Assembly: GCA_016204995.1 (NCBI GenBank)
Contig: JACQJR010000002.1
Span: 96,551-160,550, forward strand
Direction of reading: 5' to 3'
DNA: 64,000 nt
Source of the DNA: Candidatus Microgenomates bacterium
GTDB lineage: Bacteria; Patescibacteriota; Microgenomatia; UBA8517; JACQJR01
Below are positions 19,392 to 64,000 of the stretch, in pieces (within the stretch, counting starts at the first letter, position 1; each line of letters begins with the position of its first letter). The position numbers were made by a program, and so were the translations under genes. The notes under the pieces were generated by a model, which worked only from the letters and a program-made list of their open reading frames with translations, made no database searches and was not told the origin of the DNA.

Positions 19392-19447
19392 AACTCTTTT
19401 AATAACTCTTTTAAATTCTTATGTCAACCCTTCAATTACATTCAGGG

Positions 19448-31573: not shown

Positions 31574-33637
31574 ATGCCACAAAAACTAATTGCCTTTTTC
31601 TACTACGCTTTGTTTTTCTTTACTCCGCTTTTATTTAATAAAGCCAACTCCGAACTTTTTGAACTGCCAAAAATGTACTTTGTCTGGGTAATTACTATTA
31701 TCATTGTCAGCTTGTGGCTAGTTAGAATAATCGCCGAAAAGCGAGTTATTTTTCAGCGAACATTTTTAGATATTCCTCTAATTTTATATCTAATATTTCA
31801 ATTAATTAGCACCTACTTTTCAATTGATCAATACACTTCTATTTGGGGATATTATTCCAGACTTAACGGCGGATTGATATCAACTATTAGCTATTTACTA
31901 CTTTATTGGGCCTATATTTCAAATTTAACCACCCAAAATACCCTATCTGCTCTTAAATTCCTGTTAATTTCTGGTTTACTAGTAGCTTTATGGGGGATTC
32001 CTAGTCATTTTGGCTATGACCCGAATTGTGTTCTTTTTGGCTACAACCTAACCACCAATTGCTGGAGCACCCAATTTGTACCAACTGAACGCATCTTTTC
32101 CACTTTGGGTCAACCAAATTGGCTGGCCAACTGGCTCGTAGCGCTCATGCCATTAACTTGGGCCATGTTTTTCACCTCTAAGATCAAAAATCTAAAATCT
32201 AAAATCTTTTATCTATATTTAAGTCTTATCCTAATAATAGCTATCATCTTCACCAGAAGTTCCTCCGGTTTTCTGGGATTAGTGGTAGCATTAGTAGTTT
32301 TTACCACCCCGCAAATTCTACACTTATTCAAGAAGGGGAAATTTCTTGTTTGGTTAACAATCTTACCCATTTTAACTATGTCTATATTTTTTGTGCAAAA
32401 ATTACCCAAAGTTGTCAATGGACTAAAATCTTGTACAGAAATTTTGACTTCTGAAGGCGAGTCGCACATTAATAGTAATATTACTCCTTCTAGTGACATC
32501 CGCTGTATTGTCTGGAAGGGTGCTTTTGATATATGGCGGCATTATCCATTAATTGGTAGTGGGCCGGAAACTTTTGCTTATTCCTATTACCAATTCCGTC
32601 CGGCTATCCATAACTTAACCAGCGAATGGGACTTACTTTATAATAAAGCCCATAATGAGTATCTTAATTTCTTGGCTAATAGTGGCCTAGCTGGTTTAAC
32701 AACATATTTAATTTTAATTATTATGGCTTTTTGGCTATTAGGCTCCTCGGCTCTTAGGAAAAACCCAACAGCCCTGCCTGCGCAGGCAGGCCAACGGCCT
32801 AATGCCCTAATAGCCTGGGGTTTACTCGCTGGTTTTGCCAGCCTTCTCGTCACCAACTTTTTCGGCTTTTCCGTCGTTGCCACTCAACTGCAATTTTTCT
32901 TATATCCGGCAATGGTGATAGGGCCACTGGGCTCTTGGGACGCTAGGCAATCGGACAATCAAAGGCCTAACGCCCTTCAAGTCATTTTAATTTTTCTAGT
33001 ATTATTTATTACCATCTTTCTGTTAGTTAAAATCTATCATTATTACCAGGCCGATCTTCATTACAGCCGGGCCCAAACTTTAGAAGATAATCAACAATAT
33101 GTGGATTCATTATCCGAAATTAGAAAAAGTCTCAACCTGCGACCAAATGAGCCATTATATAAAAACGAATTATCAGTTATTCTTTCATCGCTATCATTCT
33201 TAACTGCCAAAACCGATAGTGATCTTAGCGCCCAAATGACCAATATTGCTATCACATCTTCCGATCAAGCGCTAGCAACTTCGCCCTACAATCTTAATTT
33301 TCTCAAAAGTCGGGCCAGTATGTTTATTAAACTCTCCCAGCCGCAAGAGGCGATCAAAACCTTAGAATATGCCCAAAAACTCGTCCCTACCGAGCCCAAG
33401 ATTGCTTATAATCTAGGTCTAACCTATATACAACTGGATCAAAATGATCAAGCCATTCAGGAGTTTAAAAAAGCTACTCAACTTCGCCCCTTATACCGCG
33501 ACGCCTGGTTAGCACTCGGACTGGCCCAGTGGCAAAAAGGTGATAAAACTACCGCCCGCCATACTTTAAATTACATTTTGCAAAATATTGACTCCCAAGA
33601 TAAAGAGGTTCTAGAACAGCTCAAAAAGTGGAAATAA
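31574..33637 (+). CDS. O-antigen ligase (Wzy_C)-like polytopic membrane protein with C-terminal TPR repeats
   Basis: Many TM helices, a large periplasmic loop, C-terminal TPR-like repeats. Contains the in-frame palindrome CCTGCCTGCGCAGGCAGG (LPAQAGQ) and 9-mer repeat inserts. Confidence 0.5.
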   Translation: MPQKLIAFFYYALFFFTPLLFNKANSELFELPKMYFVWVITIIIVSLWLVRIIAEKRVIFQRTFLDIPLILYLIFQLISTYFSIDQYTSIWGYYSRLNGGLISTISYLLLYWAYISNLTTQNTLSALKFLLISGLLVALWGIPSHFGYDPNCVLFGYNLTTNCWSTQFVPTERIFSTLGQPNWLANWLVALMPLTWAMFFTSKIKNLKSKIFYLYLSLILIIAIIFTRSSSGFLGLVVALVVFTTPQILHLFKKGKFLVWLTILPILTMSIFFVQKLPKVVNGLKSCTEILTSEGESHINSNITPSSDIRCIVWKGAFDIWRHYPLIGSGPETFAYSYYQFRPAIHNLTSEWDLLYNKAHNEYLNFLANSGLAGLTTYLILIIMAFWLLGSSALRKNPTALPAQAGQRPNALIAWGLLAGFASLLVTNFFGFSVVATQLQFFLYPAMVIGPLGSWDARQSDNQRPNALQVILIFLVLFITIFLLVKIYHYYQADLHYSRAQTLEDNQQYVDSLSEIRKSLNLRPNEPLYKNELSVILSSLSFLTAKTDSDLSAQMTNIAITSSDQALATSPYNLNFLKSRASMFIKLSQPQEAIKTLEYAQKLVPTEPKIAYNLGLTYIQLDQNDQAIQEFKKATQLRPLYRDAWLALGLAQWQKGDKTTARHTLNYILQNIDSQDKEVLEQLKKWK
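32772..32789. repeat. 18-nt perfect palindrome CCTGCCTGCGCAGGCAGG in-frame in the Wzy-like membrane protein
   Basis: Encodes ALPAQAGQ. Flanked by GGCCTAATGCCCTAATAGCC 9-mer repeats. Confidence 0.6.
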
Positions 33638-33843
33638 TGACAAAAACTTTCCGACCTGCGCTTCGCCGAAGACTCAGGCAAGGCGAGTCGCAAATAAAAT
33701 GTCAAGTCTAAATTAGCTTTTAGACTTAGTTGAATTGTCTTGGTCAAATTATACTACTAGAGGCTTAAGAAGCAAATTTTGCCAAGCCCGCCAAAAGCTA
33801 CGCATTTTTGCGGGTCCGCCATAATACGAAGTTTTAGGCGGAG

Positions 33844-33936
33844 AAAAGGCACCTTGGGGAGATATAAAAAATTTAAATCGCGTTTTGCGACAAATTTATA
33901 TATCACCTTACGGTGCCTTTAAGTATTCAGTTGTGG
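33844..33936 (+). repeat. Element Y copy A (structured repeat AAAAAGGCACC...AAATATCACC..GGTGCCTTT + TATTCAGTTGTGG)
   Basis: Outer stem GGCACC/GGTGCC encloses an internal AT-rich stem and a TCGC-gtttt-GCGA hairpin. About 85% identical to copy E at 58149. Confidence 0.6.
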
Positions 33937-33957
33937 AAAGGTTAGGAAATGGTAACC

Positions 33958-34341
33958 CTAGTTAATGTACGGCCCGAACAGGTCTTTGATTTCCGGAGGA
34001 AGCTCGCAATCGCGCCAGCTGATGATCTGAGGACCGTAAGCCCTATCATGTCCGCAAACAATCCTCTTAGCTCTGCATACTCCAGATTTTACTTCATCCG
34101 GATGACTCCGCCACGTGCGAATTTCCACGAAAACCTGGTCCTGCCACCTGACTCCTAGGTTATGACAAATGGCTCGGATGACACTTTCGGCGGCGTTGGT
34201 GGTATTGGGCGCCTTTCTGGGAGGTGTTAAACCAGTCAGGTAAATTTTATTACCCTCCCGGTAATATGCTGCCGTGCCTTTGCTGCCATGAGGACAGAGG
34301 TAATCTACCTCGGAAAGTTGCCGCAGCATTTGGCCGACCAT
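33958..34341 (-). CDS. N-acetylmuramoyl-L-alanine amidase-like (phage T7-lysozyme-like) fragment, GC-rich
   Basis: About 50% GC versus a ~38% background. Strong RBS GAGGAGG. C-terminal H..(8-9)..C spacing and SWRDCELP resemble the Amidase_2 zinc site, but the N-terminal His region is missing, so it is possibly truncated. Confidence 0.3.
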   Translation of the reverse strand: MVGQMLRQLSEVDYLCPHGSKGTAAYYREGNKIYLTGLTPPRKAPNTTNAAESVIRAICHNLGVRWQDQVFVEIRTWRSHPDEVKSGVCRAKRIVCGHDRAYGPQIISWRDCELPPEIKDLFGPYIN

Positions 34342-34583
34342 GGTTCCTCCTCGTTAGCCCACCAAAAGGGGCTAAAAAAATTTTGACCAGTTAATGTCGC
34401 CCCAGAGAAAGAGAACCGCAATCCCCACTACCGCCAGAAAAAACTCCTTCACCTGCCTTTTCCACAATCTGTTAAAGTGCGCTACTCTAAACAAAAAACA
34501 GGCTTGCCTCGCGCCTGCGTCTATTTATAGTGCTACTACAAGGTAATTGTATCAAAAGCAAAATCAAAAAACAATTTGGCAAA

Positions 34584-34638
34584 GAAAAAGGCACCCCCAA
34601 AATGATTTGCTAAAAGCAAAATCACCTCAAGGGTGCCT
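34584..34638 (+). repeat. Element Y copy B
   Basis: AAAAAGGCACC..TTTGCTaaaAGCAAA hairpin..AAAATCACC..GGTGCC. Lies 3' of minus-strand ORF 34693..35034. Confidence 0.5.
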
Positions 34639-34692
34639 AAATAAGTCCACCTGACGGGAAAAACGAGTCATGCGCGGCTCCTCCTTAGTTTT

Positions 34693-35034
34693 TCAACTCA
34701 ACTTCCGAAGCACCTCCAGTGGAACAGCCTCCTTGCTGCAAGGATACCAGTCAGCCACCCACGGGTATAGATCAAGCGGGGAGTATAACTCCAGGCTTAA
34801 CCTGTTTGCTGCCACTCGCTGTGGTGGTACCTGACCATAGCCAGGAGGAAAATCAACCTCAATAAAGGTTACTTCTCTCCAGTTGAGCTGGGCTACAGAG
34901 CAGATACCTAGGACAATACCCTCTTGGCTCTGGCCGTCACGATGACGAAAGAAAACCAGCTGGTCTGGCCAAATGGTGTACTTGACACCTGCCAGTGGAT
35001 CCCGCTCCGGTAGCGCACGACGACTCCTGGTCAT
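34693..35034 (-). CDS. hypothetical protein (GC-rich, likely foreign)
   Basis: 113-aa ORF with RBS GGAGGG. Higher GC than the host genes. Confidence 0.4.
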   Translation of the reverse strand: MTRSRRALPERDPLAGVKYTIWPDQLVFFRHRDGQSQEGIVLGICSVAQLNWREVTFIEVDFPPGYGQVPPQRVAANRLSLELYSPLDLYPWVADWYPCSKEAVPLEVLRKLS

Positions 35035-35181
35035 TTTTCCCTCCTTCAGGAAAAACTAAAATACTTTTCCGCCAAGTTAAAGAGCAAACAGACCCAAAAA
35101 GGCTTGCTTTGTTGCCTTCGGCTGTTCTTAATTCCTAACCCATAGTTTATCAAACTATAAGCCAAAAAGCAAATTGGCCAA

Positions 35182-35240
35182 GAAAAAGCGCCGGTTGGAT
35201 CAATCTTGCAGATTATGCAAAATATCACCTTCCGGCGCTG
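35182..35240 (+). repeat. Element Y copy G (compensatory variant GCGCCGG/CCGGCGC)
   Basis: Same architecture, but the outer stem changes from GGCACC/GGTGCC to GCGCCGG/CCGGCGC. Inner TTGCA-gatta-TGCAA hairpin and the AAAATATCACC motif are conserved. Confidence 0.5.
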
Positions 35241-35424
35241 TATCCTTGAGACTTAATTGTACGGTGGTAAAACGAGATGCTTCTCCCCCTCCAGTTTCCA
35301 TAGTATTTTGTGGTTCCTCTGGAGATTTGCTAATAGCAAAACCACCAACCAGTTAAGTCTAACTGCCATAACTCCTCCTTTTAATGTTTTCTGATTACCA
35401 CTTGAACTGCGGCCCAGAGAGGTG

Positions 35425-35610
35425 TTACCACCACGACAAAATACTGCCTAGCATAAACAAACCAGTTACCATGAGTAACCCGGACACGATCGCCCCAAGG
35501 GGCCCCCAATTTCGAAGAGCATCGACCAAAAGAAGACCTCCCAGTACCACTAAAACAATAGCCATAGCGGTTACTCCAAAGGGATTCATTTTCTGTTCCT
35601 TCCTGTACAA
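35425..35610 (-). CDS. small membrane protein (GC-rich)
   Basis: 61 aa with 2 TM helices. RBS AGGAAGG. Confidence 0.4.
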   Translation of the reverse strand: MYRKEQKMNPFGVTAMAIVLVVLGGLLLVDALRNWGPLGAIVSGLLMVTGLFMLGSILSWW

Positions 35611-35639
35611 CTAATGTTAAGGTACCGCCCTCCGTAACT

Positions 35640-35700
35640 TAGCTTTCACCTTACCTACTATTCGTAGCGCGACTCAAGCTGCGTTTGCTGACGGGCTATG
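35640..35700 (+). repeat. Element X copy 4 (degenerate) upstream of the DUF3800 gene
   Basis: CTAC-tattc-GTAG hairpin followed by GCGCGACTCAAGCTGCG. Aligns with the X consensus, but the hairpin arms are swapped. Confidence 0.35.
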
Positions 35701-35841
35701 CTTGTTTTAGACCCAAAGATAGATCGGCTTTTGACCTCCTTTAAACCTAAATTATGCTTAATTAGTATTGTACCACTTAACTATGAGATAAGCAAATTTG
35801 AAGTTATTGCAATAAGAGAATAAACGACAGTAAAATTAAAC

Positions 35842-36456
35842 ATGAAATTTGTTATTATTGATGAAAGTGGACGTTTATTTGACCCCAATGATAGATTTCT
35901 AATATTTGCAGCAGTTGTCACTGATACACTTGTTAACCTTGATAAAATCATACCTTCTGTTAAGAAAACACTACCCAGAAAGATAAAAATTGCAGAAATT
36001 AAATTCTCTAAAACTGGAGATAGAACCAGATTGAAAATACTTAAAGAAATTCACAGCAGGAAACTAAAACTATTTATTCTGGTAATTGATAAGGAAGGAC
36101 GAAAAATTAAAGATACTCCTGAAAATTATTCACTGTTAATAGCTACTCTGCTGAAGAAAATTATGAAGCGATACTCTACCACTTCACACATTTTAATAGA
36201 TAAACATTTCACTTGGGTGACTCAAAGAGAGAAATTCAATAAAAATATCCAGAAAATTTTGGCCCGTTCCTTATTTATTGAACATCTTGATAGCCAACAA
36301 AATACCATTGTTTCTTTGCCTGATTTCGTAGCAGGCGCAATCCGTGTTAGTTATACTAAAAACCAAAAATATTTCGCAGAAATAATAAATGATTTAATTG
36401 AAGAACAAATAGTTACAACCTGGAGGAAAATTAAACAAAAAATGGTAAAAGCTTAA
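35842..36456 (+). CDS. DUF3800-family protein
   Basis: N-terminal IIDESG motif and C-terminal SLPDFVAGAIR (DUF3800 'QLADFVAG' signature). AT-rich. Confidence 0.55.
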   Translation: MKFVIIDESGRLFDPNDRFLIFAAVVTDTLVNLDKIIPSVKKTLPRKIKIAEIKFSKTGDRTRLKILKEIHSRKLKLFILVIDKEGRKIKDTPENYSLLIATLLKKIMKRYSTTSHILIDKHFTWVTQREKFNKNIQKILARSLFIEHLDSQQNTIVSLPDFVAGAIRVSYTKNQKYFAEIINDLIEEQIVTTWRKIKQKMVKA

Positions 36457-36550
36457 AGGAGTCCTGAAAAACAGGCGTCCTGCTTTTACCTTAAATATAA
36501 TATACCATTTGTCAATAAGATTTGCAAGTAGGAAAAGCAAATTGGCCAAG

Positions 36551-36620
36551 AAAAAAGGCACCTTGGGGTAGATAAATTAGAGAATAAGTTATCTGTTCTC
36601 GGTTTTCAGTGTTCAGAATT
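36551..36620 (+). repeat. Element Y copy C (partial/degenerate)
   Basis: AAGCAAATTGGCCAAGAAAAAAGGCACCTTGGGGTAGAT 5' part matches copies A and E. The 3' half is degenerate (TTCAGTGTTCAG). Confidence 0.4.
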
Positions 36621-36655
36621 AGGTTTATCAGTAATCAGTTTACCAGTCAGTTATA

Positions 36656-37030
36656 CTAACTAAACTTTTTCCAAGTAGAGTGAAGCTTATTTAGCCTCCG
36701 GGAAAGTACCTTATATCTATCAATTAAGTCATCACAATCCTCTACTTTAATCCGAGTGAATGTTTTAGCTACGATTTTAATCTCCCGCAGATGGGTAATA
36801 ACTTCATCGGAAGAGCCAATGGCCATGGAAAGGAAGCGACAAAATTCGCGTGGAGAAGTTTTCTTACCGAATCCTTCGGCAATTTGAGGTGCAATCTTTT
36901 CCGCGGCTTCATTTAACTGATATCTCAATCTTTTGTAGATCGGTGGTAAGAGATTTGTTAAACTATAAACTGGATCAAGTAATTCTAAAGATAAATTGTA
37001 AACTTCCAAGTCTGTTACATCCTTAATCAT
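36656..37030 (-). CDS. four-helix-bundle protein (TIGR02436 / 23S rRNA intervening-sequence protein family)
   Basis: LEVYNLSLEL..LRYQLNEAAEKIAPQIAEGFGKKTSPREFCRFLSMAIGSSDEV matches the family pattern (QL.RAA.SI..NIAEG..R.S..EF..FL.IA.GS..E). 65 nt downstream of the ATPase, same strand. Confidence 0.65.
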   Translation of the reverse strand: MIKDVTDLEVYNLSLELLDPVYSLTNLLPPIYKRLRYQLNEAAEKIAPQIAEGFGKKTSPREFCRFLSMAIGSSDEVITHLREIKIVAKTFTRIKVEDCDDLIDRYKVLSRRLNKLHSTWKKFS

Positions 37031-37095
37031 ACTGATAAACAGAAAAACTGGTAAACTATTATCTGATAACTGACACCCGAAAACCGATCACTGAC

Positions 37096-39261
37096 TCATT
37101 CCTTTACCTTCCGGCCATAGCGTTCTCGAGATAAACGTTTGATCTTATCTTTATTCTCATTTTTCAGGCTCGGCAAGGGCAAAGTGTTGGCTGGGAAAGG
37201 CGAAGAGGTCATATTATCAATTGACAGCCGGGCAATAATTTCATATTTACCCAAAGCCACTAAATCATTTTCCGTATATAATTCGCCAAATTCTTTAGTC
37301 AAAATCCGGGCATCCGTCGCCCCTACCACGAATGATAAAAGCGTGCCGGCATTGCCAAAAATAGCCTTCTGAATCCCCTCTTCCAGTTGGCCAATATACT
37401 GATTGGCTAGGGTGAGCGACAGCCGATATTTGCGCGCTTCGGATAAGATTTTAATAAAGGAGCTTGTGGCAAAATTTTGAAATTCATCCACATAGAGGAA
37501 AAAATCCCGCCGTTCTTCTTCTTGAGTAAATGAACGGTTCATAGCGGCCAGCTGTAGTTGAGTAATAATCATCGCCCCCAGCAAAGAAGCATTATCCTCG
37601 CCCAATTTGCCCTGCGATAAGTTCAAAATTAAAATTTTACCTTCGTTCATAATCTGCTCAAGGTCAATCGTAGACTTGGGATTACCGACAATATTTCTGA
37701 TCATCTTGGAAGAAACGAACTGGCCAACCTTATTTTGAATTGGCGAAATGGCTTCAGTACGAAGGTTATCAGACATTCTTTCAAATTCCTTTTGCCAGAA
37801 GTTTTTCAAAACCGGGTCCTGCAAACGATCCACCACCCGCTCCCGGAAATTCCGGTCATTAAGCAAATTTAAAATATCCACTAAAGTACTACCTTCTACT
37901 TCCAAAAGGGTCAGAATGACATTGCGCAAAATATATTCCAGCCGTGGCCCCCAGCTCTCCCGATACAATTTGTAAAAAATGGAGATAATGCCCGAGGCCA
38001 CCAAATCTTTATGCTGGCGATTTTTAATTTCTAAAACGTTTAGAGAAAAAGGCCTTTCACTGTCAAAAGGTTCCAGATAAACTACGTCTGACACCCGCCG
38101 GGCCGGAATATAATCTAGAATGACCTCGGAGAGATCACCGTGCGGGTCAATAATGCCCACCCCTCGGCCCTTTCTAATATCATCAATCGCCATATTGGCA
38201 ATTAAAGTAGATTTGCCGGTGCCGGTTTTGCCGACAATATAGACGTGGCGGCGGCGATCAATTGTTTTGATACCAAAAATAGTTTCCTGATTTCTAAAGT
38301 TAGTCTTGGCAAAAAAGTTAACATCCTGCTTTTGCTCATCAGTCATAGCACTGGCTGCCGGCAAATTCTGCGGTGGCTCACCCAGTAAAGTCTTGCCCCA
38401 GGCAATATTTTTGATATTAGCCAGAAGTATGGCTGGCGGATGCCACAGACTGGCCAGTTCTTGGGCATTGAGAATTTGCTGCTGTCTTTCCAAGAAAGCC
38501 ACTTTTCGCTCGCGGATGCGAGCCAACAACCTGCCTTTGCGCAGTATTGGTCGCTTAAAAACTAACTGGTTGCCGCCGCCCAAAGAGAAACTGCCAAAAG
38601 TGCCGGCCAGATTTTGTAAAATTGGCTTGGTCGGCTGGCTATCAGAACCCGCCGCAATCCGAATCACCGCCCGCCCCCCTTGAAAAGAAGTTTTGCGTTC
38701 AATTAATATCCGCTGCGGATTTTGGCTGTAGCGATCAGAAGTCGGATCGTAAGTTTGGGTTTTAAGACTGGCCGTAGCTTTAGCTTGCCAGGGAAAAGTA
38801 GCCGGCGTCACAATAATTTGTACCATGATTTTAGTATCATTATCTTGCTTGGATAAAAAACCCAACAGTGAAGCCAAGGGGTCAACGTCGCGAAAATCCA
38901 AGTAGGTTTTAATCGGCAGATAGAAATAGGAGTTTAAGGCCAGCTCGCCTATTTCCAGATTTTTGGATTTCAAAACTTCAAAAAGGGGATCGGAGGTAGC
39001 GGCAATTTGAGCTTTGGGATAGGAAGAAGTGACTAAACTTTCCATGAAATTTTTGTGAGCATTAGTTGTAGTGACATAAAAATAAATAGTGGAATTAACG
39101 AGATAAATTTCAAAGCTAAAAGTTCCCTGCTTGGTAAACAGCCATTTCCAACCCGGCAAATACGGCCGCGATAAGACAGAGGCGAAGATTTGCGCGGCAC
39201 TTTCAGTAGGCGTCTCATCGTCTTTGGAAAGCTTAAGTTGAATATGGCTAAGCTGCGGCAT
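37096..39261 (-). CDS. FtsK/HerA/VirD4(T4CP)-superfamily P-loop ATPase, cytoplasmic (DUF87/type-IV-DNA-transfer-like)
   Basis: Walker A (GKTGTGKST), IIDPHGD motif, Walker B (FFLYVDEFQNF), arginine-finger/sensor region (ARKYRLSLTLANQ). About 330-aa N-terminal domain of unknown function. No TM segments. Confidence 0.55.
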   Translation of the reverse strand: MPQLSHIQLKLSKDDETPTESAAQIFASVLSRPYLPGWKWLFTKQGTFSFEIYLVNSTIYFYVTTTNAHKNFMESLVTSSYPKAQIAATSDPLFEVLKSKNLEIGELALNSYFYLPIKTYLDFRDVDPLASLLGFLSKQDNDTKIMVQIIVTPATFPWQAKATASLKTQTYDPTSDRYSQNPQRILIERKTSFQGGRAVIRIAAGSDSQPTKPILQNLAGTFGSFSLGGGNQLVFKRPILRKGRLLARIRERKVAFLERQQQILNAQELASLWHPPAILLANIKNIAWGKTLLGEPPQNLPAASAMTDEQKQDVNFFAKTNFRNQETIFGIKTIDRRRHVYIVGKTGTGKSTLIANMAIDDIRKGRGVGIIDPHGDLSEVILDYIPARRVSDVVYLEPFDSERPFSLNVLEIKNRQHKDLVASGIISIFYKLYRESWGPRLEYILRNVILTLLEVEGSTLVDILNLLNDRNFRERVVDRLQDPVLKNFWQKEFERMSDNLRTEAISPIQNKVGQFVSSKMIRNIVGNPKSTIDLEQIMNEGKILILNLSQGKLGEDNASLLGAMIITQLQLAAMNRSFTQEEERRDFFLYVDEFQNFATSSFIKILSEARKYRLSLTLANQYIGQLEEGIQKAIFGNAGTLLSFVVGATDARILTKEFGELYTENDLVALGKYEIIARLSIDNMTSSPFPANTLPLPSLKNENKDKIKRLSRERYGRKVKE

Positions 39262-39329
39262 TAACTACATTATATTACATTTTTAACAAGCTTGTCTCGC
39301 CGAAGTCCGGCGTAGACGGACGAAGGCGG

Positions 39330-39441
39330 AAAAAAAGGCACCCCGCGGGAAATATCTTGCGGTTAAGCAAAAATATCACCTTTGAGGTGCCTTGATACTA
39401 TTTTGAGCTTGCGAAAAACAAGCTTCGCTTATTCAGTTGTG
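39330..39441 (+). repeat. Element Y copy D
   Basis: AAAAAAAGGCACC...CTTGC-ggtta-GCAA...AAAATATCACC-tttga-GGTGCCTT, then an extra AGCTTG/CAAGCT hairpin, then TATTCAGTTGTG. Lies 3' of minus ORF 39429..39647. Confidence 0.5.
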
Positions 39442-39647
39442 ATGGAAGATTGTATCTCCCTTATCTTTTTGTCCAGCCGACTAAGACAGTCATTGGGCTT
39501 CTCGAGAGGGCATTCGCCGTAAAGGTGGTTCACCCACTCCATGTCATCCCGATCCTTCAACGAGATTACACTTACCTCCTTGACTGCGTAACCAGCAATC
39601 TCATCGACCTCCTTTTCTGTCAGACAAGCCTCAACTACCGAAGCCAT
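39429..39647 (-). CDS. hypothetical small acidic protein (GC-rich)
   Basis: 72 aa, RBS GGGAGGG. Confidence 0.35.
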   Translation of the reverse strand: MASVVEACLTEKEVDEIAGYAVKEVSVISLKDRDDMEWVNHLYGECPLEKPNDCLSRLDKKIREIQSSITTE

Positions 39648-39685
39648 AATTCCCTCCCTTACGAATACACCGAAACCTTTTCCTA

Positions 39686-39898
39686 CTAGGAACTACTCAC
39701 CAGCAACTTCTCTGCCGCAACTTTCTCCTTATTAGATTTCTGTAGGGCGGCAAATAGGAAGCTGAACGGAGTATGCCGCAGATACACGTAGTATTGGGCC
39801 GTATCCATGTCTTCAGTGAGGCCCCATTCGGTCCTCAACAGATGCTGCATGGCTGCCTGACAGCGGGGTTGATGCGAACAATACCAGTACACGTTCAA
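39686..39898 (-). CDS. hypothetical small protein (GC-rich)
   Basis: 70-aa ORF, TTG start with an adjacent AAAGGAGG. The start is uncertain. Confidence 0.25.
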   Translation of the reverse strand: MNVYWYCSHQPRCQAAMQHLLRTEWGLTEDMDTAQYYVYLRHTPFSFLFAALQKSNKEKVAAEKLLVSSS

Positions 39899-40149
39899 CC
39901 TCCTTTTCGACCAGATAAAGCCTTAGGGCATATTTACCCCGAACTCCTCCTAATCAGGCTTGCGGCTCGCTTGGTGAGCTGGAAAAACGTGATGGCCAGT
40001 ACCGCAATGACAAATATCACCGTCAGTATCGCTATGGACAGGATCACCAGGACCACGAAGAGGAAACCCATCTCCATGTTCAATATCAAATCCTCCAGCA
40101 TTTTTCTCCTTACAACTGAAATGTCAACGTGCCTTTGACCTACCTAATC

Positions 40150-40230
40150 TTACCTTTCGTCTTAGTAGATTTCTACTGCGACTCAAGGAGTGATTTATGG
40201 CGGGTCTGCATCACAAATTGCGATGCAATT
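40150..40230 (+). repeat. Element X copy 3 upstream of def
   Basis: AGTAG-attt-CTACT hairpin (compensatory relative to copy 1), GCGACTCAAGGAG..ATGGCGGGT, then a hairpin GCATC..GATGC with different sequence but the same structure. Confidence 0.45.
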
Positions 40231-40365
40231 TATTCTTTGAAAAAGCGCTTTTAAGACTTGCTTATTGCCCTAAGCCTCTTTTCCCAAGTTATGCTATTAT
40301 ATTACAAACTATGGGATTATTCAAAAAATTAGCAATTAGCAAGCAAAATTGGTAAAATACATGCT

Positions 40366-40959
40366 ATGAGTGTCCAGAAAATTTTGACAGTGCAGAATCC
40401 GGTTTTGCGGACATCGGCTAAAAAAGTCACCCAATTTGATAAACGAATTGAACGGTTAATCACTGATTTAATTGATACTTTAAAAGTGCAAAAAGACCCC
40501 ATCGGAGTCGGTCTTGCTGCTCCTCAAATTGGCAAGTCCATAAGACTTTTTGTCGCTAAATTGGGTAAGGATATTATTCCCTTTATAAATCCGGAAATTA
40601 CTTGGAAATCTGAAAACACTAACGACCCAAAACCAACTAAACGTTTTCCTAAGAGCCTAGAAGCCCAAGAGCCCATAAGCCCCGAATACATCATGGAAGG
40701 ATGTCTGTCTCTTCCCCATTTTTACGGCCCAGTCCAGCGGGCCCACCAAGTCACAGTTCGTTATCAGACTCCAAAATTGGAAATTGGAAATTGGAAATTG
40801 GAAATTACGACGAAGTCGTTTAGTGGGCTGGCCGCGCAAATTATTCAACACGAAACAGACCATTTAAACGGCACATTATTTATTGATAATTTACTTCATC
40901 AAAAGCGTAAACTTTATAAATGGGAAGGCAAAGAATGGGAAGAAGTGGAATTACCGTAG
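40366..40959 (+). CDS. def: peptide deformylase
   Basis: Motifs GVGLAAPQIG, EGCLS, HETDHLNG. Contains in-frame repeat-derived inserts (KSLEAQEPISP, and a (GGAAATT)n tract encoding KLEIGNWKLEI). Confidence 0.85.
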   Translation: MSVQKILTVQNPVLRTSAKKVTQFDKRIERLITDLIDTLKVQKDPIGVGLAAPQIGKSIRLFVAKLGKDIIPFINPEITWKSENTNDPKPTKRFPKSLEAQEPISPEYIMEGCLSLPHFYGPVQRAHQVTVRYQTPKLEIGNWKLEITTKSFSGLAAQIIQHETDHLNGTLFIDNLLHQKRKLYKWEGKEWEEVELP

Positions 40960-41004
40960 GCAATTCAGGGCGTTAGGACATTAGGTATTTAGGCTCTTAG
41001 GCAT

Positions 41005-41367
41005 ATGAGCGATTTTACCAAATTAAAAATATGGCAGAAATCTCACGAATTATCATTGGAGGTTTATCATCTTACTGCAAAACTACCTAAAGAAGAAACT
41101 TTCGGCTTAATGTCACAGTTACGCCGAGCAGCAGTATCAGTAGAATCTAATATTGCCGAGGGCGAATCAAGATTTAGTAGTAAGGATAAACTAAATTTCT
41201 TTATCCAAAGTCGCGCATCTATCGGCGAGGTCCAGACACAATTACTTTTAGTAGCTGATTTATATCAGCAATTAAAGAGTAAAGCTTTACAATTAAAAGA
41301 AGAATATACTAATCTTTATAAACAAATAAATAGTCTTGTTTCTTATAGAAGAAAAAACGATTTATGA
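41005..41367 (+). CDS. four-helix-bundle protein (23S rRNA IVS protein family)
   Basis: KLKIWQKSHELSLEVYHLT..QLRRAAVSVESNIAEGESRFS family pattern. Inserted between def and fmt. Confidence 0.65.
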   Translation: MSDFTKLKIWQKSHELSLEVYHLTAKLPKEETFGLMSQLRRAAVSVESNIAEGESRFSSKDKLNFFIQSRASIGEVQTQLLLVADLYQQLKSKALQLKEEYTNLYKQINSLVSYRRKNDL

Positions 41368-44993: not shown

Positions 44994-45365
44994 TTGGGGG
45001 TTATGAGCGAGAATAATGGATTTAGATTTGAAGAATTACAAGTTTACCAAAGAGCTTTAAATTTTGCGAATGAAGTTTATGAAATCAGCAACCAATGGCC
45101 CAGAGAACATGTTTTTTCTTTAACAGATCAATTAAGAAGAGCATCACTCTCTGTAGCCTTAAATATTGCTGAAGGAGCAAGTAGAACTAAATTAGAATTT
45201 AAAAGATTTATAACTATTAGTAGGGGTTCCTGTCATGAATGCATCCCTATTATAGAAATAGCTTTTAGGCAAAAATTAATTGATATAAAAAGAAAGGAGG
45301 TATGGTTAAACGAGGTTACAACATTATCTAAAATGTTAAGTAAACTTAAGAGTTCAATAGTTTAA
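44994..45365 (+). CDS. four-helix-bundle protein (23S rRNA IVS protein family)
   Basis: ELQVYQRALNFANEVYEIS..QLRRASLSVALNIAEGASR family pattern. Inserted between tRNA-Thr and rpmG, flanked by 9-mer tandem repeats. Confidence 0.65.
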   Translation: MGVMSENNGFRFEELQVYQRALNFANEVYEISNQWPREHVFSLTDQLRRASLSVALNIAEGASRTKLEFKRFITISRGSCHECIPIIEIAFRQKLIDIKRKEVWLNEVTTLSKMLSKLKSSIV

Positions 45366-48720: not shown

Positions 48721-48982
48721 GCTATTAGGTTTTCTGACCTAGGAGCCAAAGAGCCTAACGCCCTAAAAGCCTATTACTCCAGCTTTCTACAAATTCTTTC
48801 CGATCGCAAATAAAACAAATAAAATGTCAAGTTTCAGGTGTCCTACCTAAACCACCTCTAAGGTGATTAATCCTTGACACCTATTTAACCAAAGAAAAAA
48901 GCGCTCTTGGTATAAAACCCATCATTAAAAAATGATGTCCGATTACTCGGCAAGAGCGCTTACTAATTTAGTTGCGAGATTG

Positions 48983-49171
48983 TTACCTCCTTACAGAATG
49001 GCGATGACGCCGGATTTTTACAATTTGATCCGCTGCCAATATCAGGAAAAGCAGGAAAACCACAAACCAGCCGGTCACTATTGGGTTTGTTAGAAAGAAA
49101 ACTGTCCCCACCATTGCAGTTCCCACTACCCAAGTAGCAACCCAAATCAGGATGACTGATCTAAGTGACAT
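48983..49171 (-). CDS. small membrane protein
   Basis: 62 aa, 2 TM helices. Paired with the next small membrane ORF. Confidence 0.3.
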   Translation of the reverse strand: MSLRSVILIWVATWVVGTAMVGTVFFLTNPIVTGWFVVFLLFLILAADQIVKIRRHRHSVRR

Positions 49172-49181
49172 TTCTTCCTCC

Positions 49182-49436
49182 TTATTTCTTTCCTTTGGGT
49201 GGTCTAAGCAACCATTCTCTTTGCCTAATTGCTACGCCGGTGGCAAGTAGCACAATCGCTAGCATCAATAACCAAGGAACTGAATCGCTTGTCAATACGC
49301 GCGGTAGCACTATAACGGAGACGAGAATCGCGATGGCAAAAATTGCCCGCCACATTTTATTTCTCCCTTCAATTTTCTTCGCAACTAATTTTTTAAAGAG
49401 CCAACATCTCAAATTAAGTCCAGCTTTTAGACTCAC
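49182..49436 (-). CDS. small membrane protein
   Basis: 84 aa, 2 TM helices. Confidence 0.3.
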   Translation of the reverse strand: MSLKAGLNLRCWLFKKLVAKKIEGRNKMWRAIFAIAILVSVIVLPRVLTSDSVPWLLMLAIVLLATGVAIRQREWLLRPPKGKK

Positions 49437-49482
49437 ATGAGTTGTCAGGACAATTATAGCACCGCCGCTTTTGAAAACAAAT

Positions 49483-58118: not shown

Positions 58119-58147
58119 ATTATGTGCGATCGGAAAGAAAATGTCAA
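58119..58147 (-). promoter_or_regulatory. sigma70-like promoter (TTGACA-N17-CATAAT) of the PaaX-like gene, overlapped by an operator half-site
   Basis: The -35 is embedded in the CGATCGGAAAGAAAATGTCA half-site, which suggests autoregulation. Confidence 0.4.
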
Positions 58148-58148
58148 G

Positions 58149-58250
58149 AAAAAAGGCACCTTGGGGTAGATATAAAAAATTTAAATCGCGGTTATGTGAC
58201 CAATTTATATATCACCTTTAGGTGCCTTTAAGAACATATTCAGTTGTGGG
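58149..58250 (+). repeat. Element Y copy E
   Basis: Near-identical to copy A. Lies 3' of minus-strand gene 58269..58667. Confidence 0.6.
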
Positions 58251-58268
58251 AAATTTGGGTATTGGTTA

Positions 58269-58667
58269 TTACCGCCAGCGGTTATATCTCCATCGAGGAT
58301 CATACACCCTCAAAAGGGAGGCTACGTAAAAGGTCAATATCCAACCACCGAGACCAGTTGCTACTTGTAGCCAGCTGTTTTTGACTTGCAGAGCCGCAAA
58401 GGTAGATAGTAAAAACATCGCCATGACTATTATAAGCTTTCCTACATTCATCCACTCCCCTTTGCTTCCAACTGGAACCTGCAAATCCTGTTTCTTAAAG
58501 CTAATCCTCTTCTGGCAATCTTCGCAGATGGCGATGTGAACAGTTTGATCTGCTAGATCAAAACGCCGGGCCAGGTCAATGGCAACAGCCGAAGATTCCA
58601 GCAATGCTCGGGCACGCTCCTCCACTGCCTCATCTGCCAGATGATAAACAACAGTCCTATCCGTCAT
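58269..58667 (-). CDS. membrane protein with HxxxCxxC (ZAS-like) motif, GC-rich
   Basis: HIAICEDC fits the zinc anti-sigma H-x3-C-x2-C pattern. Two C-terminal TM helices. RBS AAAGGAG. GC-rich relative to its neighbours. Confidence 0.35.
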   Translation of the reverse strand: MTDRTVVYHLADEAVEERARALLESSAVAIDLARRFDLADQTVHIAICEDCQKRISFKKQDLQVPVGSKGEWMNVGKLIIVMAMFLLSTFAALQVKNSWLQVATGLGGWILTFYVASLLRVYDPRWRYNRWR

Positions 58668-58869
58668 GACTTTCTCCTTTGCCCTGACTTTGCTCTGACA
58701 TCCATTGAGCTACAGACCGGCGATCGCCGCACTGCAAACAGACAATGTCCACGCCCAAACCGTCATCCTCTTCAAAAAGATCGCCGCCGCATTTCTTACA
58801 TTCCCTTAACGACCGTAATCGTTGATCACTATTTTCATTATCTAGATTTCGCCCAAGCACTTCAGACAT
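58657..58869 (-). CDS. zinc-ribbon small protein, GC-rich
   Basis: CKKCGG...CLQCGD two CxxC pairs. Start set at the internal Met with a strong AGGAGG. Confidence 0.4.
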   Translation of the reverse strand: MSEVLGRNLDNENSDQRLRSLRECKKCGGDLFEEDDGLGVDIVCLQCGDRRSVAQWMSEQSQGKGESHDG

Positions 58870-59050
58870 GTCGCCCTCCTTAATTTCCACTAACTGAATG
58901 TTAACGTGCGTTTTGAGTCACAAAGACTAGATACGCGCAAAATGTATCTACCTATGACACAACAAGGCAATTATATACCCATCCAACCTTATTTCCAATA
59001 AATGGGTATATACGAGTACTTTTAGTTAAAAACTAAAATAAGACGATATA

Positions 59051-63280: not shown

Positions 63281-63300
63281 AAGCCTTATTGTAGCTAAGA

Positions 63301-63395
63301 AAAAAGGCACCGTCCAGAGATAAAATTGCTTATAAAGCAAAATATCACCTTTTGGTGCCTTTGCGACCCATATTCGGTTGTGTATTCAGTTGTAA
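63301..63395 (+). repeat. Element Y copy F
   Basis: AAAAAAGGCACC..TTGCTT-ata-AAGCAA..AAAATATCACC-tttt-GGTGCCTTT, then ATATTCGGTTGTG and TATTCAGTTGT tails. A GC-rich minus-strand micro-ORF follows. Confidence 0.5.
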
Positions 63396-64000
63396 AGAAA
63401 CTAGTCTCGCTGTTTAGCAGGCCATTCACCTTGCAAGGCCACTTCAAACCTCCTTGAATTACCACCAGATGCCAGTGATGTAATTGACCACCCACAGCTC
63501 GCCGCCAAGAAGTAGCAATGCGGCCCCAAAAATAAGAGCACTCCTCATATTCCTTCCTCTAAATCTGAATTTTTTCCAAAAAGTACGCAACAGCTAATGT
63601 TGCTCTCTTTGCGGAAACTACAACCGAATTTTCAAGGTGCTCCATTCAGTTTTACTGGATTGTCGCGAGACTTGCTTTTTGTCTTTAACCTCCACTAAAA
63701 CTACTCTCTTTGAATTACTAAAGGATATGCAAAAATCATTTTTGTGAGATACATTTTACTATATTTACCATTAATTTACAACTATAAGATAAGGTTTTGA
63801 CTATGGAAGATAGATTATCCATCTACAATCAATCTCTAGTCACAACTGCCCAGATAAATTTCAGAAGAGATAGTTGGCGCCCAATTCTCCATGGTTCTAA
63901 AATTAACCTAAATAGCCATTCTAAACCTAAATTACGCAGCCACAGCGGGGCACGGGGTACGCGGCCGGCTAGATAATCAAAGCTACCGCCAACCACCATT

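What the first reader, a model, noticed from the sequence alone, without database searches (positions are those of the whole stretch)
33640..40340. Cassette-like accessory island: GC-rich minus-strand ORFs each followed by the same structured 3' element
Between the Wzy-like gene and def, the gene content switches from housekeeping genes to a run of minus-strand ORFs. They are clearly GC-richer than the flanking genes (roughly 45-52% versus ~38%) and have strong Shine-Dalgarno sites. The run holds a truncated amidase-like gene, 113-aa and 61-aa unknowns, a four-helix-bundle protein plus a 721-aa HerA/FtsK-like ATPase, and three further small ORFs at 39.4-40.1 kb. A single AT-rich DUF3800 gene sits on the plus strand. 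Five copies of Element Y sit immediately 3' of the minus-strand genes or gene groups. That is the gene-then-recombination-site layout of integron cassette arrays, but no integrase or attI is in this window and the element does not match attC core sites. It could be a novel cassette-capture or mobile-terminator system, or the scar of serial insertions.
Basis: partly seen in the sequence, partly recalled or inferred. Interest (0 to 1): 0.75.

Follow-up and report, generated by a model that had tools for sequence, protein, structure and literature searches.

The report
Self-contained small-gene modules with paired ends
The repeated "Element Y" is the transcription terminator of a lineage-specific family of small-gene modules in an uncultured Microgenomates (CPR) bacterium; each module's start and end are kept complementary by selection, and the modules fill variable slots between conserved genes.

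Summary
Four intact Y copies and one decayed copy lie in 33.8-39.4 kb, and three more lie outside it (48.9, 58.2, 63.3 kb), all on the minus strand. Y is a long GC-based hairpin followed by a T-run, which is the form of an intrinsic terminator. It follows only one class of genes: small ORFs, often membrane peptides, with strong Shine-Dalgarno sites and high GC3. Native genes here have neither feature. The "island" is a mosaic. The 721-aa ATPase is a core Microgenomates gene and the four-helix-bundle gene has a 76%-identical homologue in a related species.

Each module reads promoter, leader, GCAC-TT-ACA motif, 5' box, SD, ORF(s), 3' box, terminator. The two boxes are complementary within a module. 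Compensatory changes across 14+ modules in three genomes support this (0 of 10,000 permutations reach the observed pairing).

Related species keep the def...ATPase...Wzy-MreB frame but hold different modules in both gaps. A second locus is empty in a relative. No recombinase and no attC-type core sites were found.

Best reading: mRNA "panhandle" modules resembling type I toxin mRNAs, clustered in a variable hotspot. A DNA-level cassette mechanism is not excluded.

The parts
33838..33921 (-). Y1: terminator hairpin plus T-run of module C1
   Evidence: Folds at -30.8 kcal/mol, z = -6.4. Strict pattern hit. About 90% identical to Y6 over roughly 100 nt.
33924..33935 (-). 3' box of C1 (CACAACTGAATA)
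   Evidence: Pairs with the C1 5' box.
33958..34341 (-). 127-aa ORF with SD AGGAGG and GC3 0.54
   Evidence: It has 32 remote homologues of similar length and no Pfam match. The AF2 model has pLDDT 93 with no PDB match.
34372..34494 (-). Tentative 40-aa hydrophobic ORF, first ORF of C1
   Evidence: ORF list. Hydropathy 1.86. The start codon is uncertain.
34456..34482 (-). C1 5' motif GCGCACTTTAACA plus 5' box GATTGTGGAAAAGG
   Evidence: Cognate duplex -23.1 kcal/mol, the best in its row.
34580..34641 (-). Y2: terminator of module C2
   Evidence: -31.4 kcal/mol, z = -6.1. Pattern hit.
34685..34694 (-). 3' box of C2 (GAAAAACTAA), overlapping the stop codon of the 113-aa ORF
   Evidence: Perfect 10-bp complement of the C2 5' box. 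Best in both row and column.
34693..35034 (-). 113-aa ORF with SD AAGGAGG and GC3 0.53; an orphan
   Evidence: No homologue found by the word-indexed search of 5.8 billion protein clusters.
35050..35086 (-). C2 5' box TTAGTTTTTC and 5' motif GCTCTTTAACT
   Evidence: Read from the sequence..
35178..35242 (-). Y3: terminator of C3, a stem variant (GCGCCGG/CCGGCGC)
   Evidence: -27.9 kcal/mol, z = -4.1..
35253..35369 (-). 38-aa SD-led ORF; the C3 3' box GTACAATTAA (35254-35263) lies at its end
35425..35589 (-). 54-aa two-TM peptide, first ORF of C3
   Evidence: Hydropathy 2.68. Also called as a gene on Logan contigs.
35603..35627 (-). C3 5' motif GGTACCTTAACA plus 5' box TTAGTTGTAC
35842..36456 (+). 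DUF3800 gene: AT-rich (GC 0.30), no SD
   Evidence: Pfam PF12686, E = 1.8e-5..
36444..36527 (-). Promoter-like site (TTGCAA-17-TATATT) followed directly by a hairpin and T-run; an ORF-less module remnant or small-RNA candidate
   Evidence: promoter. (hairpin 36490-36444, -21 kcal/mol).
36545..36625 (-). Y4: decayed Y copy; only the 3' arm, T-run and CTTGGCCAATTTGC tail remain
   Evidence: Alignment. Fold -10.5 kcal/mol, z = -0.9.
36656..37030 (-). Four-helix-bundle protein (23S_rRNA_IVP); native-like composition
   Evidence: Pfam E = 2.5e-15. 76% identical to a gene in L108/L109.
37096..39261 (-). 721-aa DUF8128/TrwB-VirD4-like ATPase; a core gene with no SD and a -10 box just before the ATG
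   Evidence: At least 7,815 homologues at 66-77% identity in Microgenomates.
39327..39395 (-). Y5: terminator of module C5
39429..40101 (-). C5 ORFs: 55-aa TM peptide (39934-40101), 68 aa (39686-39892) and 72 aa (39429-39647). The 3' box CACAACTGAATA at 39430-39441 overlaps the last codons.
40108..40134 (-). C5 5' motif GGCACGTTGACA plus 5' box TTTCAGTTGT, directly before SD AAGGAG
40296..40324 (-). Promoter-like site of C5 (TTGAAT-17-TATAAT)
   Evidence: 10 of 12 match.
48891..49460 (-). Module C8, outside the island: promoter TGCTATAAT, 5' motif and box GGCTCTTTAAAAAATTAGTTGCGA, two 2-TM ORFs (49182-49355 and 48983-49171), 3' box TCGCAACTAAATT, Y-like terminator
58141..58985 (-). Module C6, outside the island: promoter, 5' box, 70-aa zinc-ribbon ORF and 132-aa ORF, 3' box 58237-58248, Y6 58141-58230
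   Evidence: The whole-transcript fold closes the 5' and 3' boxes in both MFE and centroid. Absent from the orthologous junction in L115.
63292..63750 (-). Module C7, outside the island: 5' box ATTCGGTTGT (63620-63629), 29-aa TM peptide (63459-63548), two 3' boxes (63371-63394), Y7 63292-63363
   Evidence: The whole-transcript fold pairs the variant boxes, z = -3.6.

Best explanation
Element Y is the Rho-independent terminator of a lineage-specific family of self-contained small-gene expression modules.

Each module consists of:
- a promoter of the type CCATAGT...TGGTATAAT;
- a leader of about 50-190 nt ending in a conserved GCAC(G)TT(A/G)ACA motif;
- a 5' box;
- a strong Shine-Dalgarno site, which the organism's native genes mostly lack;
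- one to three small ORFs, often membrane peptides;
- a 3' box placed at or just after the last stop codon;
- a long GC-based hairpin with a U-tract (Y).

The 5' and 3' boxes of the same module base-pair, often extending into the SD. The mRNA is therefore predicted to close into a panhandle. I infer that this controls translation and/or protects the mRNA ends, as in type I toxin mRNAs such as hok and aapA1.

The modules accumulate, co-oriented, in variable intergenic slots. The two slots flanking the core T4SS-type ATPase make up the 'island', and their content differs between related species. Turnover probably uses the conserved module flanks as portable homology in a DprA-encoding, presumably transformable cell.

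Shown: the anatomy, the terminator form, the compositional and SD contrast, the covarying complementarity, and the between-species variability.
Inferred: that the pairing acts in RNA, its regulatory effect, and the turnover mechanism.
For: Terminator form:
- 17 hairpins from the window, L107, L108 and L112 fold at -21 to -39 kcal/mol. They have 8-12-bp GC-rich bases followed directly by TTTTT(T)CTT(T)GG.
- Stem sequences differ between modules and species, but the stems still pair.

Restricted to one gene class:
- GC3 median is 0.52 against 0.35 (p = 1.2e-7).
- An SD match of at least 5 nt occurs in 10 of 12 module ORFs against 8 of 65 native ORFs (p = 2e-6).
- 6 of 12 module ORFs are TM-like.

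5'-3' pairing:
- Cognate duplexes average -21.4 kcal/mol against -15.3 for non-cognate pairs; 0 of 20,000 permutations match this.
- In a 12-column helix over 14 modules, 154 of 168 cells pair. 10 of 12 pairs show compensatory double changes, and the core columns 4-10 have no unpaired cell. 0 of 10,000 permutations reach the observed pairing.
- A module in L115 has a completely different box pair (GGGGTGGGG/CCCACCCCC) that is still complementary, at -29.8 kcal/mol.
- Whole-transcript folds of C6, C7 and the L115 module contain the helix; for C6 and C7 it is in both MFE and centroid.

Variability:
- Synteny is conserved with different modules in both gaps.
- A site in L115 is empty.

The ATPase is a core gene. 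DprA is present.

Precedent: AapA1 and hok mRNAs need 3' processing to unmask the SD (PMC5416894).
Against: - There are no transcript data. Promoters, transcript ends and the pairing itself are predictions.
- Duplex energies show no sense/antisense asymmetry (8 of 15, p = 0.35). Complementarity alone therefore cannot distinguish RNA pairing from a DNA inverted repeat.
- The helix alignment was made by hand, with four bulges or an inserted pair removed.
- The 3' box lies upstream of the terminator hairpin. hok-style 3' exonucleolytic activation would be blocked, so the regulatory logic must differ.
- Several module ORFs are soluble-looking proteins (127, 113, 72 and 68 aa), not toxin-like peptides.
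- No antisense RNA gene was identified.
- The function of the invariant GCAC-TT-ACA motif is unexplained.
- How unrelated ORFs come to sit in near-identical frames is unexplained. Y1 and Y6 are about 90% identical.
Confidence: 0.6

Rival explanations
1. A DNA-level cassette system. The 5' and 3' boxes would be recombination sites flanking swappable ORFs, either integron-like R'/R'' half-sites or the inverted repeats of an invertible segment. The promoter/leader and Y would be fixed expression slots. The recombinase would lie elsewhere in the genome, or a co-travelling PaaX/Cas2-like protein would take part.
For: - Unrelated ORFs sit in near-identical frames. Y1 and Y6 are about 90% identical from just after the stop codon.
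- Content differs between species in the same slots.
- The layout GTTGTGG-ORF-CCACAAC resembles GTTRRRY-ORF-RYYYAAC of integron cassettes (read from the sequence).
- There is no sense/antisense asymmetry in pairing.
- A PaaX_M/Cas2-like gene lies in the same orientation at the downstream end of a module array in the window and L108, and directly after a module in L107.
- All 8 modules share one orientation.
Against: - No integrase, invertase or transposase domain in about 65 window ORFs, nor among the gene calls of L107-L109.
- The boxes do not meet the attC core consensus.
- The 3' box of one module and the 5' box of the next are not complementary: -11.6 to -15.4 in four of five adjacent pairs, against cognate values of about -22. 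No attC-like hairpin therefore spans junctions.
- The boxes are inverted repeats, not direct repeats, so they cannot mediate simple excision.
- Seven Logan contigs from five samples are 100% identical in the same orientation.
- The boxes abut the SD and the stop codon, and pairing often includes the SD. A pure DNA site has no reason to do that.
Confidence: 0.13
2. The modules are bona fide type I toxin-antitoxin loci. A small hydrophobic toxin would be translated from a structured, stable mRNA and repressed by an as yet unseen antisense RNA. The island would be a TA-rich hotspot.
For: - Seven of eight window modules encode at least one hydrophobic ORF: six peptides of 29-62 aa, including the tentative 40-aa ORF of C1, plus the TM-containing 132-aa protein of C6.
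- In the relatives nearly all module ORFs are TM-like.
- 5'-3' pairing near or over the SD resembles hok and aapA1.
- There are multiple divergent copies per genome.
- In L108 the neighbours include a type II Phd-PIN pair.
Against: - No antisense promoter or sRNA could be identified.
- Several modules carry operons with larger, soluble-looking proteins. One of these belongs to a conserved 120-140-aa family.
- The 3' box is protected by the terminator, so hok-like 3' trimming is unlikely.
- No match to any Rfam toxin or antitoxin RNA family.
- Toxicity is untested.
Confidence: 0.2
3. Nothing special. The region would be ordinary horizontally acquired genes with ordinary terminators, left as a scar of serial insertions. 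Similar terminators would reflect duplication or gene conversion, and the box complementarity would be incidental.
For: - Y has plain terminator anatomy.
- The ORFs are compositionally atypical orphans.
- Within one genome the terminators are partly homogenised: GGCACC stems in the window and GGCCC stems in L108.
Against: - The same multi-part architecture recurs in at least four further assemblies (L107/L115, L108/L109, L112, L113) around unrelated ORFs.
- Box complementarity is module-specific, with 26 compensatory cells and one complete sequence replacement.
- 0 of 10,000 to 20,000 permutations reach the observed values.
Confidence: 0.05

Closest known systems
Type I toxin mRNAs with 5'-3' fold-back (hok/Sok of plasmid R1; aapA1/IsoA1 of Helicobacter pylori)
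   Same: - Short, mostly hydrophobic ORFs.
- Several diverged copies per chromosome, often in variable regions.
- A highly structured mRNA in which sequences near the 3' end pair with the 5' region and occlude the translation start (PMC5416894).
- A terminal stem-loop.
   Different: - No antisense antitoxin RNA was found.
- Many modules are operons that include non-hydrophobic proteins of 70-160 aa.
- The 3' pairing partner lies upstream of an intact terminator hairpin, so activation by 3' trimming is unlikely.
- There is no sequence or Rfam relationship.
- The phylum is different (CPR).
Integron gene cassettes and attC sites (including CALINs, attC clusters without an integrase)
   Same: - Co-oriented arrays of short, unrelated, often orphan ORFs.
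- Each ORF or ORF group is followed by a structured imperfect palindrome of 50-90 nt.
- Short inverted sequences flank each ORF.
- Content varies between relatives.
   Different: - Y lacks the R''/L''-L'/R' organisation and the RYYYAAC/GTTRRRY cores.
- Y carries a U-tract, so it is a terminator.
- Modules carry their own promoter and leader.
- Junction-spanning hairpins are not formed.
- No IntI, attI or Pc is present.
Rho-independent (intrinsic) terminators
   Same: A GC-rich stem immediately followed by a U-tract. The stem sequence is free to vary as long as it pairs.
   Different: - Unusually long (50-75 nt), with a conserved internal-loop layout and an SD-like AGGTGAT in the 5' arm.
- Coupled to a conserved 3' box.
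- Used only by one gene class in this genome.
5'UTR-3'UTR pairing in single bacterial mRNAs (icaR of Staphylococcus aureus; hbs of Bacillus subtilis) and the RNase III processing stems that enclose rRNAs. These comparisons come from my own knowledge, not from a check here.
   Same: Long-range pairing of transcript ends that either masks the SD or protects or processes the RNA.
   Different: Those are single genes or rRNA operons. Here the design is a repeated, portable frame around many unrelated ORFs.

Membership tests
Intrinsic (Rho-independent) terminator | Stable GC-rich stem-loop immediately followed by a run of U on the transcribed strand | tested here: met
   Seven window copies and ten from relatives fold at -21 to -39 kcal/mol with a T-run starting 0-2 nt after the stem. 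Y4 fails (z = -0.9).
Intrinsic (Rho-independent) terminator | Actually stops transcription in vivo or in vitro | not testable with these tools
   No transcript data are available.
Integron cassette / attC | attC with inverse core RYYYAAC (R'') and core GTTRRRY (R') at its two ends | tested here: not met
   The Y ends are AAGGCACC...GGTGCCTT. The nearest look-alikes are the boxes CCACAAC and GTTGTGG, which fail the consensus and flank the ORF rather than the hairpin.
Integron cassette / attC | Tyrosine recombinase IntI with adjacent attI and Pc, or at least a folded site spanning cassette junctions | tested here: not met
   No recombinase domain in about 65 window ORFs or among the gene calls of L107-L109. 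Adjacent box pairs are not complementary. Only 64 kb of a 164.5-kb contig was seen.
Integron cassette / attC | Cassettes are promoterless | tested here: not met
   Each module has a conserved extended -10 promoter-like element. This is a prediction only.
Type I toxin-antitoxin | Small (under about 60 aa) hydrophobic toxin ORF | tested here: met
   Peptides of 29, 54, 55, 57 and 62 aa have 19-residue hydropathy of 1.97-3.4, and the tentative 40-aa ORF scores 1.86. Module C2 does not meet this feature (113 aa only), and several modules are operons that also carry larger proteins.
Type I toxin-antitoxin | Antisense or overlapping small-RNA antitoxin | tested here: inconclusive
   No convincing conserved antisense promoter was seen. 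There is no Rfam hit. Strand-specific RNA data are needed.
Type I toxin-antitoxin | Toxin mRNA folded so that the translation start is masked (5'-3' interaction in the hok and aapA families) | tested here: met
   Covarying 5'/3' helix next to or over the SD. This rests on prediction and comparative support only.
Type I toxin-antitoxin | Toxicity on expression | not testable with these tools
   Needs an experiment.
MITE / REP-like mobile repeat | Many near-identical intergenic copies with terminal inverted repeats and target-site duplications, independent of neighbouring genes | tested here: not met
   There are only 7-8 copies in 64 kb, always at the 3' end of one gene class and in one orientation. 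No duplicated flanks were seen by eye in the Y1/Y6 alignment, although this was not searched for systematically. The strict Y patterns are absent from 185,579 species genomes, JGI metagenomes and IMG/VR; all hits there were chance matches in coding sequence.
Invertible DNA segment (inverton) | Both orientations present in a population; invertase gene nearby | tested here: not met
   Seven contigs from five samples are all in the window orientation. No invertase was found. Assemblies would hide a minority orientation.
Variable genomic hotspot / accessory island | Conserved flanking genes with differing content between relatives | tested here: met
   def...ATPase...Wzy-MreB is conserved in L107 and L108 with non-homologous inserts. 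The polyprenyl synthase-UppS junction is empty in L115.

The most novel reading that the evidence does not exclude
The modules would be a previously undescribed kind of portable gene cassette in CPR bacteria. The fixed frame would be promoter, GCAC-TT-ACA motif and 5' box at one end, and 3' box and terminator at the other. That frame would both regulate the mRNA and serve as the handle by which unrelated small ORFs are captured, exchanged and multiplied between genomes. The mechanism would be dedicated but unseen, possibly involving the co-travelling PaaX/Cas2-like protein or transformation-driven recombination. Functionally this would be an integron analogue without an integrase.
Probability: 0.15. 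Interest if true: 0.85.

Novelty: new variant of a known kind. Interest (0 to 1): 0.66.

Why it matters
- CPR bacteria make up a large share of bacterial diversity, yet their gene regulation and accessory-gene dynamics are almost unknown.
- This genome appears to run two translation regimes. Native genes lack SD sites and look leaderless. A separate class of SD-led small-protein modules has mRNA ends held together by selection.
- The modules mark the variable part of an otherwise streamlined genome. NCBI's own annotation left most of the island's small module ORFs uncalled.
- If the panhandle controls translation, it extends the logic of type I toxin mRNAs to a new phylum and to whole operons.
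- If the frame also mediates gene exchange, it would be a new cassette system.
- Either way it gives a concrete, searchable signature for finding small-protein genes and accessory hotspots in CPR genomes: the 5' motif, paired boxes and a long terminator.

Tried and rejected
- **Rfam.** No family matches Y, the boxes or the leaders, either at gathering thresholds over the whole window or at E <= 5 over 33.4-40.5 kb.
- **Exact-pattern scans for Y.** There were 0 hits in 185,579 species genomes. Four hits in JGI metagenomes were all one marine coding sequence. Thirteen hits in IMG/VR with two patterns were all chance matches in coding sequence. These scans needed exact matches to window-type stems, so diverged copies would be missed.
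- **MreB-based search for sibling genomes.** The best hit was only 62% identical, so the loci were uninformative. Relatives were reached through ATPase homologues instead.
- **Fetching the rest of the 164.5-kb NCBI contig.** Only short Logan contigs identical to the window came back.
- **Generic terminator scans.** The tool's scan cannot see loops longer than 8 nt. My two own scans were swamped by hairpins inside coding sequence.
- **MAFFT plus RNAalifold on 12 terminators.** This recovered only the basal stem because the alignment is not structure-aware. I relied on individual folds.
- **G.U asymmetry test for the acting strand.** Inconclusive.
- **PHROGs and PADLOC on module proteins.** No hits.
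- **sigma-54 or -35 promoter reading of the GCAC-TT-ACA motif.** Rejected by eye because the spacing and the -12 or -10 elements do not fit.
- **Pairing of the 5' GGCAC with the Y 3' arm (antitermination idea).** Rejected because it does not hold in L107 and L108, where the stems differ.
- **Module 'C9' (acidic peptide, 55.3-55.7 kb) with the HTH_17 gene.** First taken for another variable module, but the pair is conserved in L114 and L115.

Full report
**Source and setting**

The window comes from an NCBI metagenome-assembled genome labelled Candidatus Microgenomates bacterium (locus tags HY404_, contig 164,547 bp). Several of its proteins are on record there. Logan contigs from five runs (SRR12113383/84/85/420/430) are 100% identical to the stretches they cover. 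The window is 40.4% GC with a uniformly negative GC skew. Pfam annotation of about 65 ORFs shows a compact housekeeping genome. It includes topoisomerases, DnaX, RecR, DprA, tRNA synthetases, ribosomal proteins, MreB, a PBP, CTP synthase, def and fmt. No integrase, transposase or resolvase was found.

**Checking the observation**

- The 127-aa ORF is not a truncated amidase. It is a full-length member of a rare uncharacterised family: 32 remote homologues of 118-160 aa, conserved motifs and no Pfam match. Its AlphaFold model is confident (pLDDT 93.4) and has no PDB counterpart.
- The 721-aa ATPase (DUF8128 plus HerA/TrwB/TraG-type domains) is not accessory. It has at least 7,815 homologues at 66-77% identity across Microgenomates.

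Element Y is real.

- An alignment of seven copies shows AAGGCACC, a short spacer, AAGGTGATAT, a variable AT-rich tip, CCCC, GGTGCC and a T-run.
- A strict pattern hits five times against none in shuffles.
- The island holds Y1, Y2, Y3 (a stem variant) and Y5, plus Y4, which has lost its 5' arm and no longer folds.
- Y is not confined to the island. Y6 (58141-58230), Y7 (63292-63363) and a Y-like copy with another stem (48891-48963) lie among housekeeping genes.
- All copies are on the minus strand.

**What Y is**

On the minus strand every intact copy is a long hairpin (-23 to -31 kcal/mol, z = -2.9 to -6.4) with an 8-12-bp GC-rich base. A run of T and then CTT(T)GG follow at once. That is the form of an intrinsic terminator. 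On the plus strand no T-run follows. Ten further examples from related genomes have the same form with quite different stem sequences. Rfam has no matching family.

**The island is a mosaic of two gene classes**

Native genes have GC3 around 0.35 and almost never an SD. Many have a -10-like hexamer a few bases before the start codon. The ATPase, the four-helix-bundle gene and DUF3800 all lack an SD and have GC3 of 0.23-0.47.

The ORFs that precede Y copies are different.

- GC3 median is 0.52 (Mann-Whitney p = 1.2e-7).
- An SD match of at least 5 nt occurs in 10 of 12, against 8 of 65 native genes (Fisher p = 2e-6).
- Half have a strongly hydrophobic 19-residue segment.
- Six of them appear only in Logan gene calls, not in the NCBI annotation.
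- None has a PHROG or PADLOC match.
- The 113-aa protein has no detectable homologue at all.

**The module architecture**

Reading the minus strand, each unit has these parts in order:

- a promoter-like extended -10 element;
- a leader of roughly 50-190 nt;
- a conserved motif GCAC(G)TT(A/G)A(C/A)A;
- a 5' box;
- the SD;
- one to three ORFs;
- a 3' box (consensus CACAACTGAATA) at or just after the last stop codon;
- Y.

The window holds seven such modules with the Y-type frame: C1-C3 and C5 in the island, and C8, C6 and C7 outside. An acidic-peptide unit at 55.3-55.7 kb has the same design with unrelated boxes.

**The 5' and 3' boxes of a module are complementary**

This is not just a shared consensus.

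- Across 14 modules from three genomes, cognate 5'/3' duplexes average -21.4 kcal/mol against -15.3 for non-cognate combinations. No permutation out of 20,000 matches this.
- In a hand-made 12-column register, 154 of 168 cells pair. Ten of 12 pairs show compensatory double changes (26 cells), and the seven core columns have no unpaired cell. No permutation out of 10,000 reaches the observed pairing.
- Examples of matched box pairs:

| Module | 5' box | 3' box |
|---|---|---|
| C7 | ATTCGGTTGT | ACAACCGAAT |
| C2 | TTAGTTTTTC | GAAAAACTAA |
| L108-B | AATTGTCGTG | CACGACAATT |
| L107-a | TATTTAGTTGGG | CCCAACTAAATA |

- A module in L115 has an unrelated pair, GGGGTGGGG/CCCACCCCC.
- In many modules the helix runs on into the SD, for example C2, C5 and L107-c.
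- Whole-transcript folds of C6 (840 nt), C7 (450 nt) and the L115 module place this helix in the minimum-free-energy structure, and for C6 and C7 also in the centroid.

Caveats: the register was fitted by eye, with three bulged bases and one inserted pair removed. A test for G.U asymmetry between strands was inconclusive.

**Relatives**

ATPase homologues led to L107 (76% identity, Logan), L108/L109 (73%, NCBI) and L110/L111 (70%).

- L107 and L108 keep the frame fmt-def ... ATPase ... Wzy-TPR, followed in L108 by MreB and a PBP.
- Both gaps are filled with different small ORFs. No window module protein has a homologue there.
- L108 also carries a Phd-PIN pair, an orthologue of the four-helix-bundle gene in another position, and a PaaX/Cas2-like gene.
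- The module architecture, including promoter type, 5' motif, SD, box pairing and the terminator with its TTTTTCTTGG tail, is the same.
- Module ORFs in the relatives are mostly membrane proteins with strong SDs, and in L108 they are again GC3-rich.
- Two loci holding homologues of the 127-aa protein (L112, L113) show the same motifs.
- At a second locus, L115 has polyprenyl synthase followed after 61 nt by the long UppS. In the window these two genes are separated by module C6 plus a PaaX-like gene.
- The more distant L110/L111 lack the motifs.

No within-species variation could be examined.

**Mechanism**

I take Y to be the terminator of these modules, and the box helix to act in the mRNA. 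My reasons are:

- both boxes lie inside the predicted transcript;
- the 5' box abuts the SD, and the helix often covers it;
- the 3' box sits at the stop codon;
- thermodynamic folds form the helix;
- known precedents exist in type I toxin mRNAs, where 3' sequences keep the SD masked until processing (PMC5416894).

The likely effect is translational gating and/or protection of both mRNA ends. RNase III cleavage of the stem is another possibility.

The alternative is that the inverted boxes are DNA recombination sites. My data do not exclude this, but several points weigh against it:

- no recombinase is present;
- the boxes are inverted rather than direct repeats;
- they fail the attC consensus;
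- junction-spanning hairpins do not form;
- seven contigs show no inversion.

How unrelated ORFs come to occupy near-identical frames remains unexplained. Y1 and Y6 are about 90% identical from just after the stop codon. Gene conversion or homologous exchange through the conserved flanks, in a DprA-encoding cell, is my inference.

**Limits**

- There are no transcript data.
- Only 64 kb of the genome and about 90 kb from relatives were examined.
- Promoters and ORF starts are predictions.
- The public-collection scans required exact matches to window-type Y sequences.

Noticed in passing
window 922-939, 32722-32813, 32911-32948, 40644-40683, 40973-41001, 41362-41421, 42300-42343, 48700-48730, 56067-56145, 62254-62271: A second repeat family. 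Arrays with an 8-nt period (such as GGCTCTTA or AAGCCCAA) often flank the GC-rich palindrome CCTGCCTGCGCAGGCAGG (4 copies against 0.02 expected). Several lie inside ORFs (topoisomerase IB, Wzy, def, fmt, tgt), apparently as insertions that leave the ORF open, reminiscent of Rickettsia palindromic elements. Two arrays bracket the four-helix-bundle gene at 41005-41367.
   Followed up: partly
window 36656-37030, 41005-41367, 44994-45365: Three paralogous AT-rich 23S_rRNA_IVP (four-helix-bundle) genes. One sits between def and fmt, which directly adjoin each other in L107 and L108. One lies among tRNA genes. The first has a 76%-identical homologue in L108 at a different position and on the other strand. 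They look individually mobile.
   Followed up: partly
window-wide, e.g. upstream of 16-756, 37096-39261, 59051-60091: Native genes almost never have a Shine-Dalgarno site. Many have a TATAAT-like hexamer 6-10 nt before the start codon, which suggests widespread leaderless mRNAs in this organism.
   Followed up: partly
window 33958-34341: The 127-aa protein defines a rare family (33 representatives among 1.8 billion). Its AlphaFold model is confident (pLDDT 93.4) and has no significant PDB match (best E = 0.085, TM 0.3 or less), so it may be a new fold.
   Followed up: partly
window 36444-36527 (minus): A promoter-like site is followed at once by a hairpin and T-run with no ORF, antisense to the 3' end of DUF3800. 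It is either an emptied module or a small antisense RNA.
   Followed up: no
window 55240-56062; L114 7000-7700; L115 9200-9759: A divergent pair is conserved in L114 and L115: a 70-aa MerR/HTH_17 (excisionase-like) protein and a very acidic 35-60-aa peptide (poly-Glu/Asp). The peptide has its own SD, a 5'/3' complementary pair (GTCAAGT/ACTTGAC) and a terminator. The HTH_17 leader shares about 75 nt with the leaders of modules C5 and C3.
   Followed up: partly
window 57596-58159; L107 6806-7360; L108 12732-13259: A PaaX_M/Cas2-like-domain protein lies next to the modules in the same orientation in the window, L107 and L108. In the window and L108 it sits at the downstream end of a module or module array, and in L107 directly after one module. 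In the window it is absent, together with C6, from the orthologous junction in L115. It is a candidate regulator of, or partner for, the modules.
   Followed up: partly
window about 48790-48810, 57570-57590, 58115-58135: The motif TTCTTTCCGATCG recurs near promoters beside the PaaX-like gene and module C8. It may be an operator.
   Followed up: no
window 818-1882: A bacterial type IB topoisomerase (Topoisom_I catalytic core plus Top1B_N_bact). It carries one of the palindrome insertions.
   Followed up: no
window 33958-35589 and 39429-40101: Six SD-led ORFs appear in the protein collection only from Logan gene calls. NCBI accession numbers run consecutively across the region. This suggests that PGAP did not annotate them.
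   Followed up: partly
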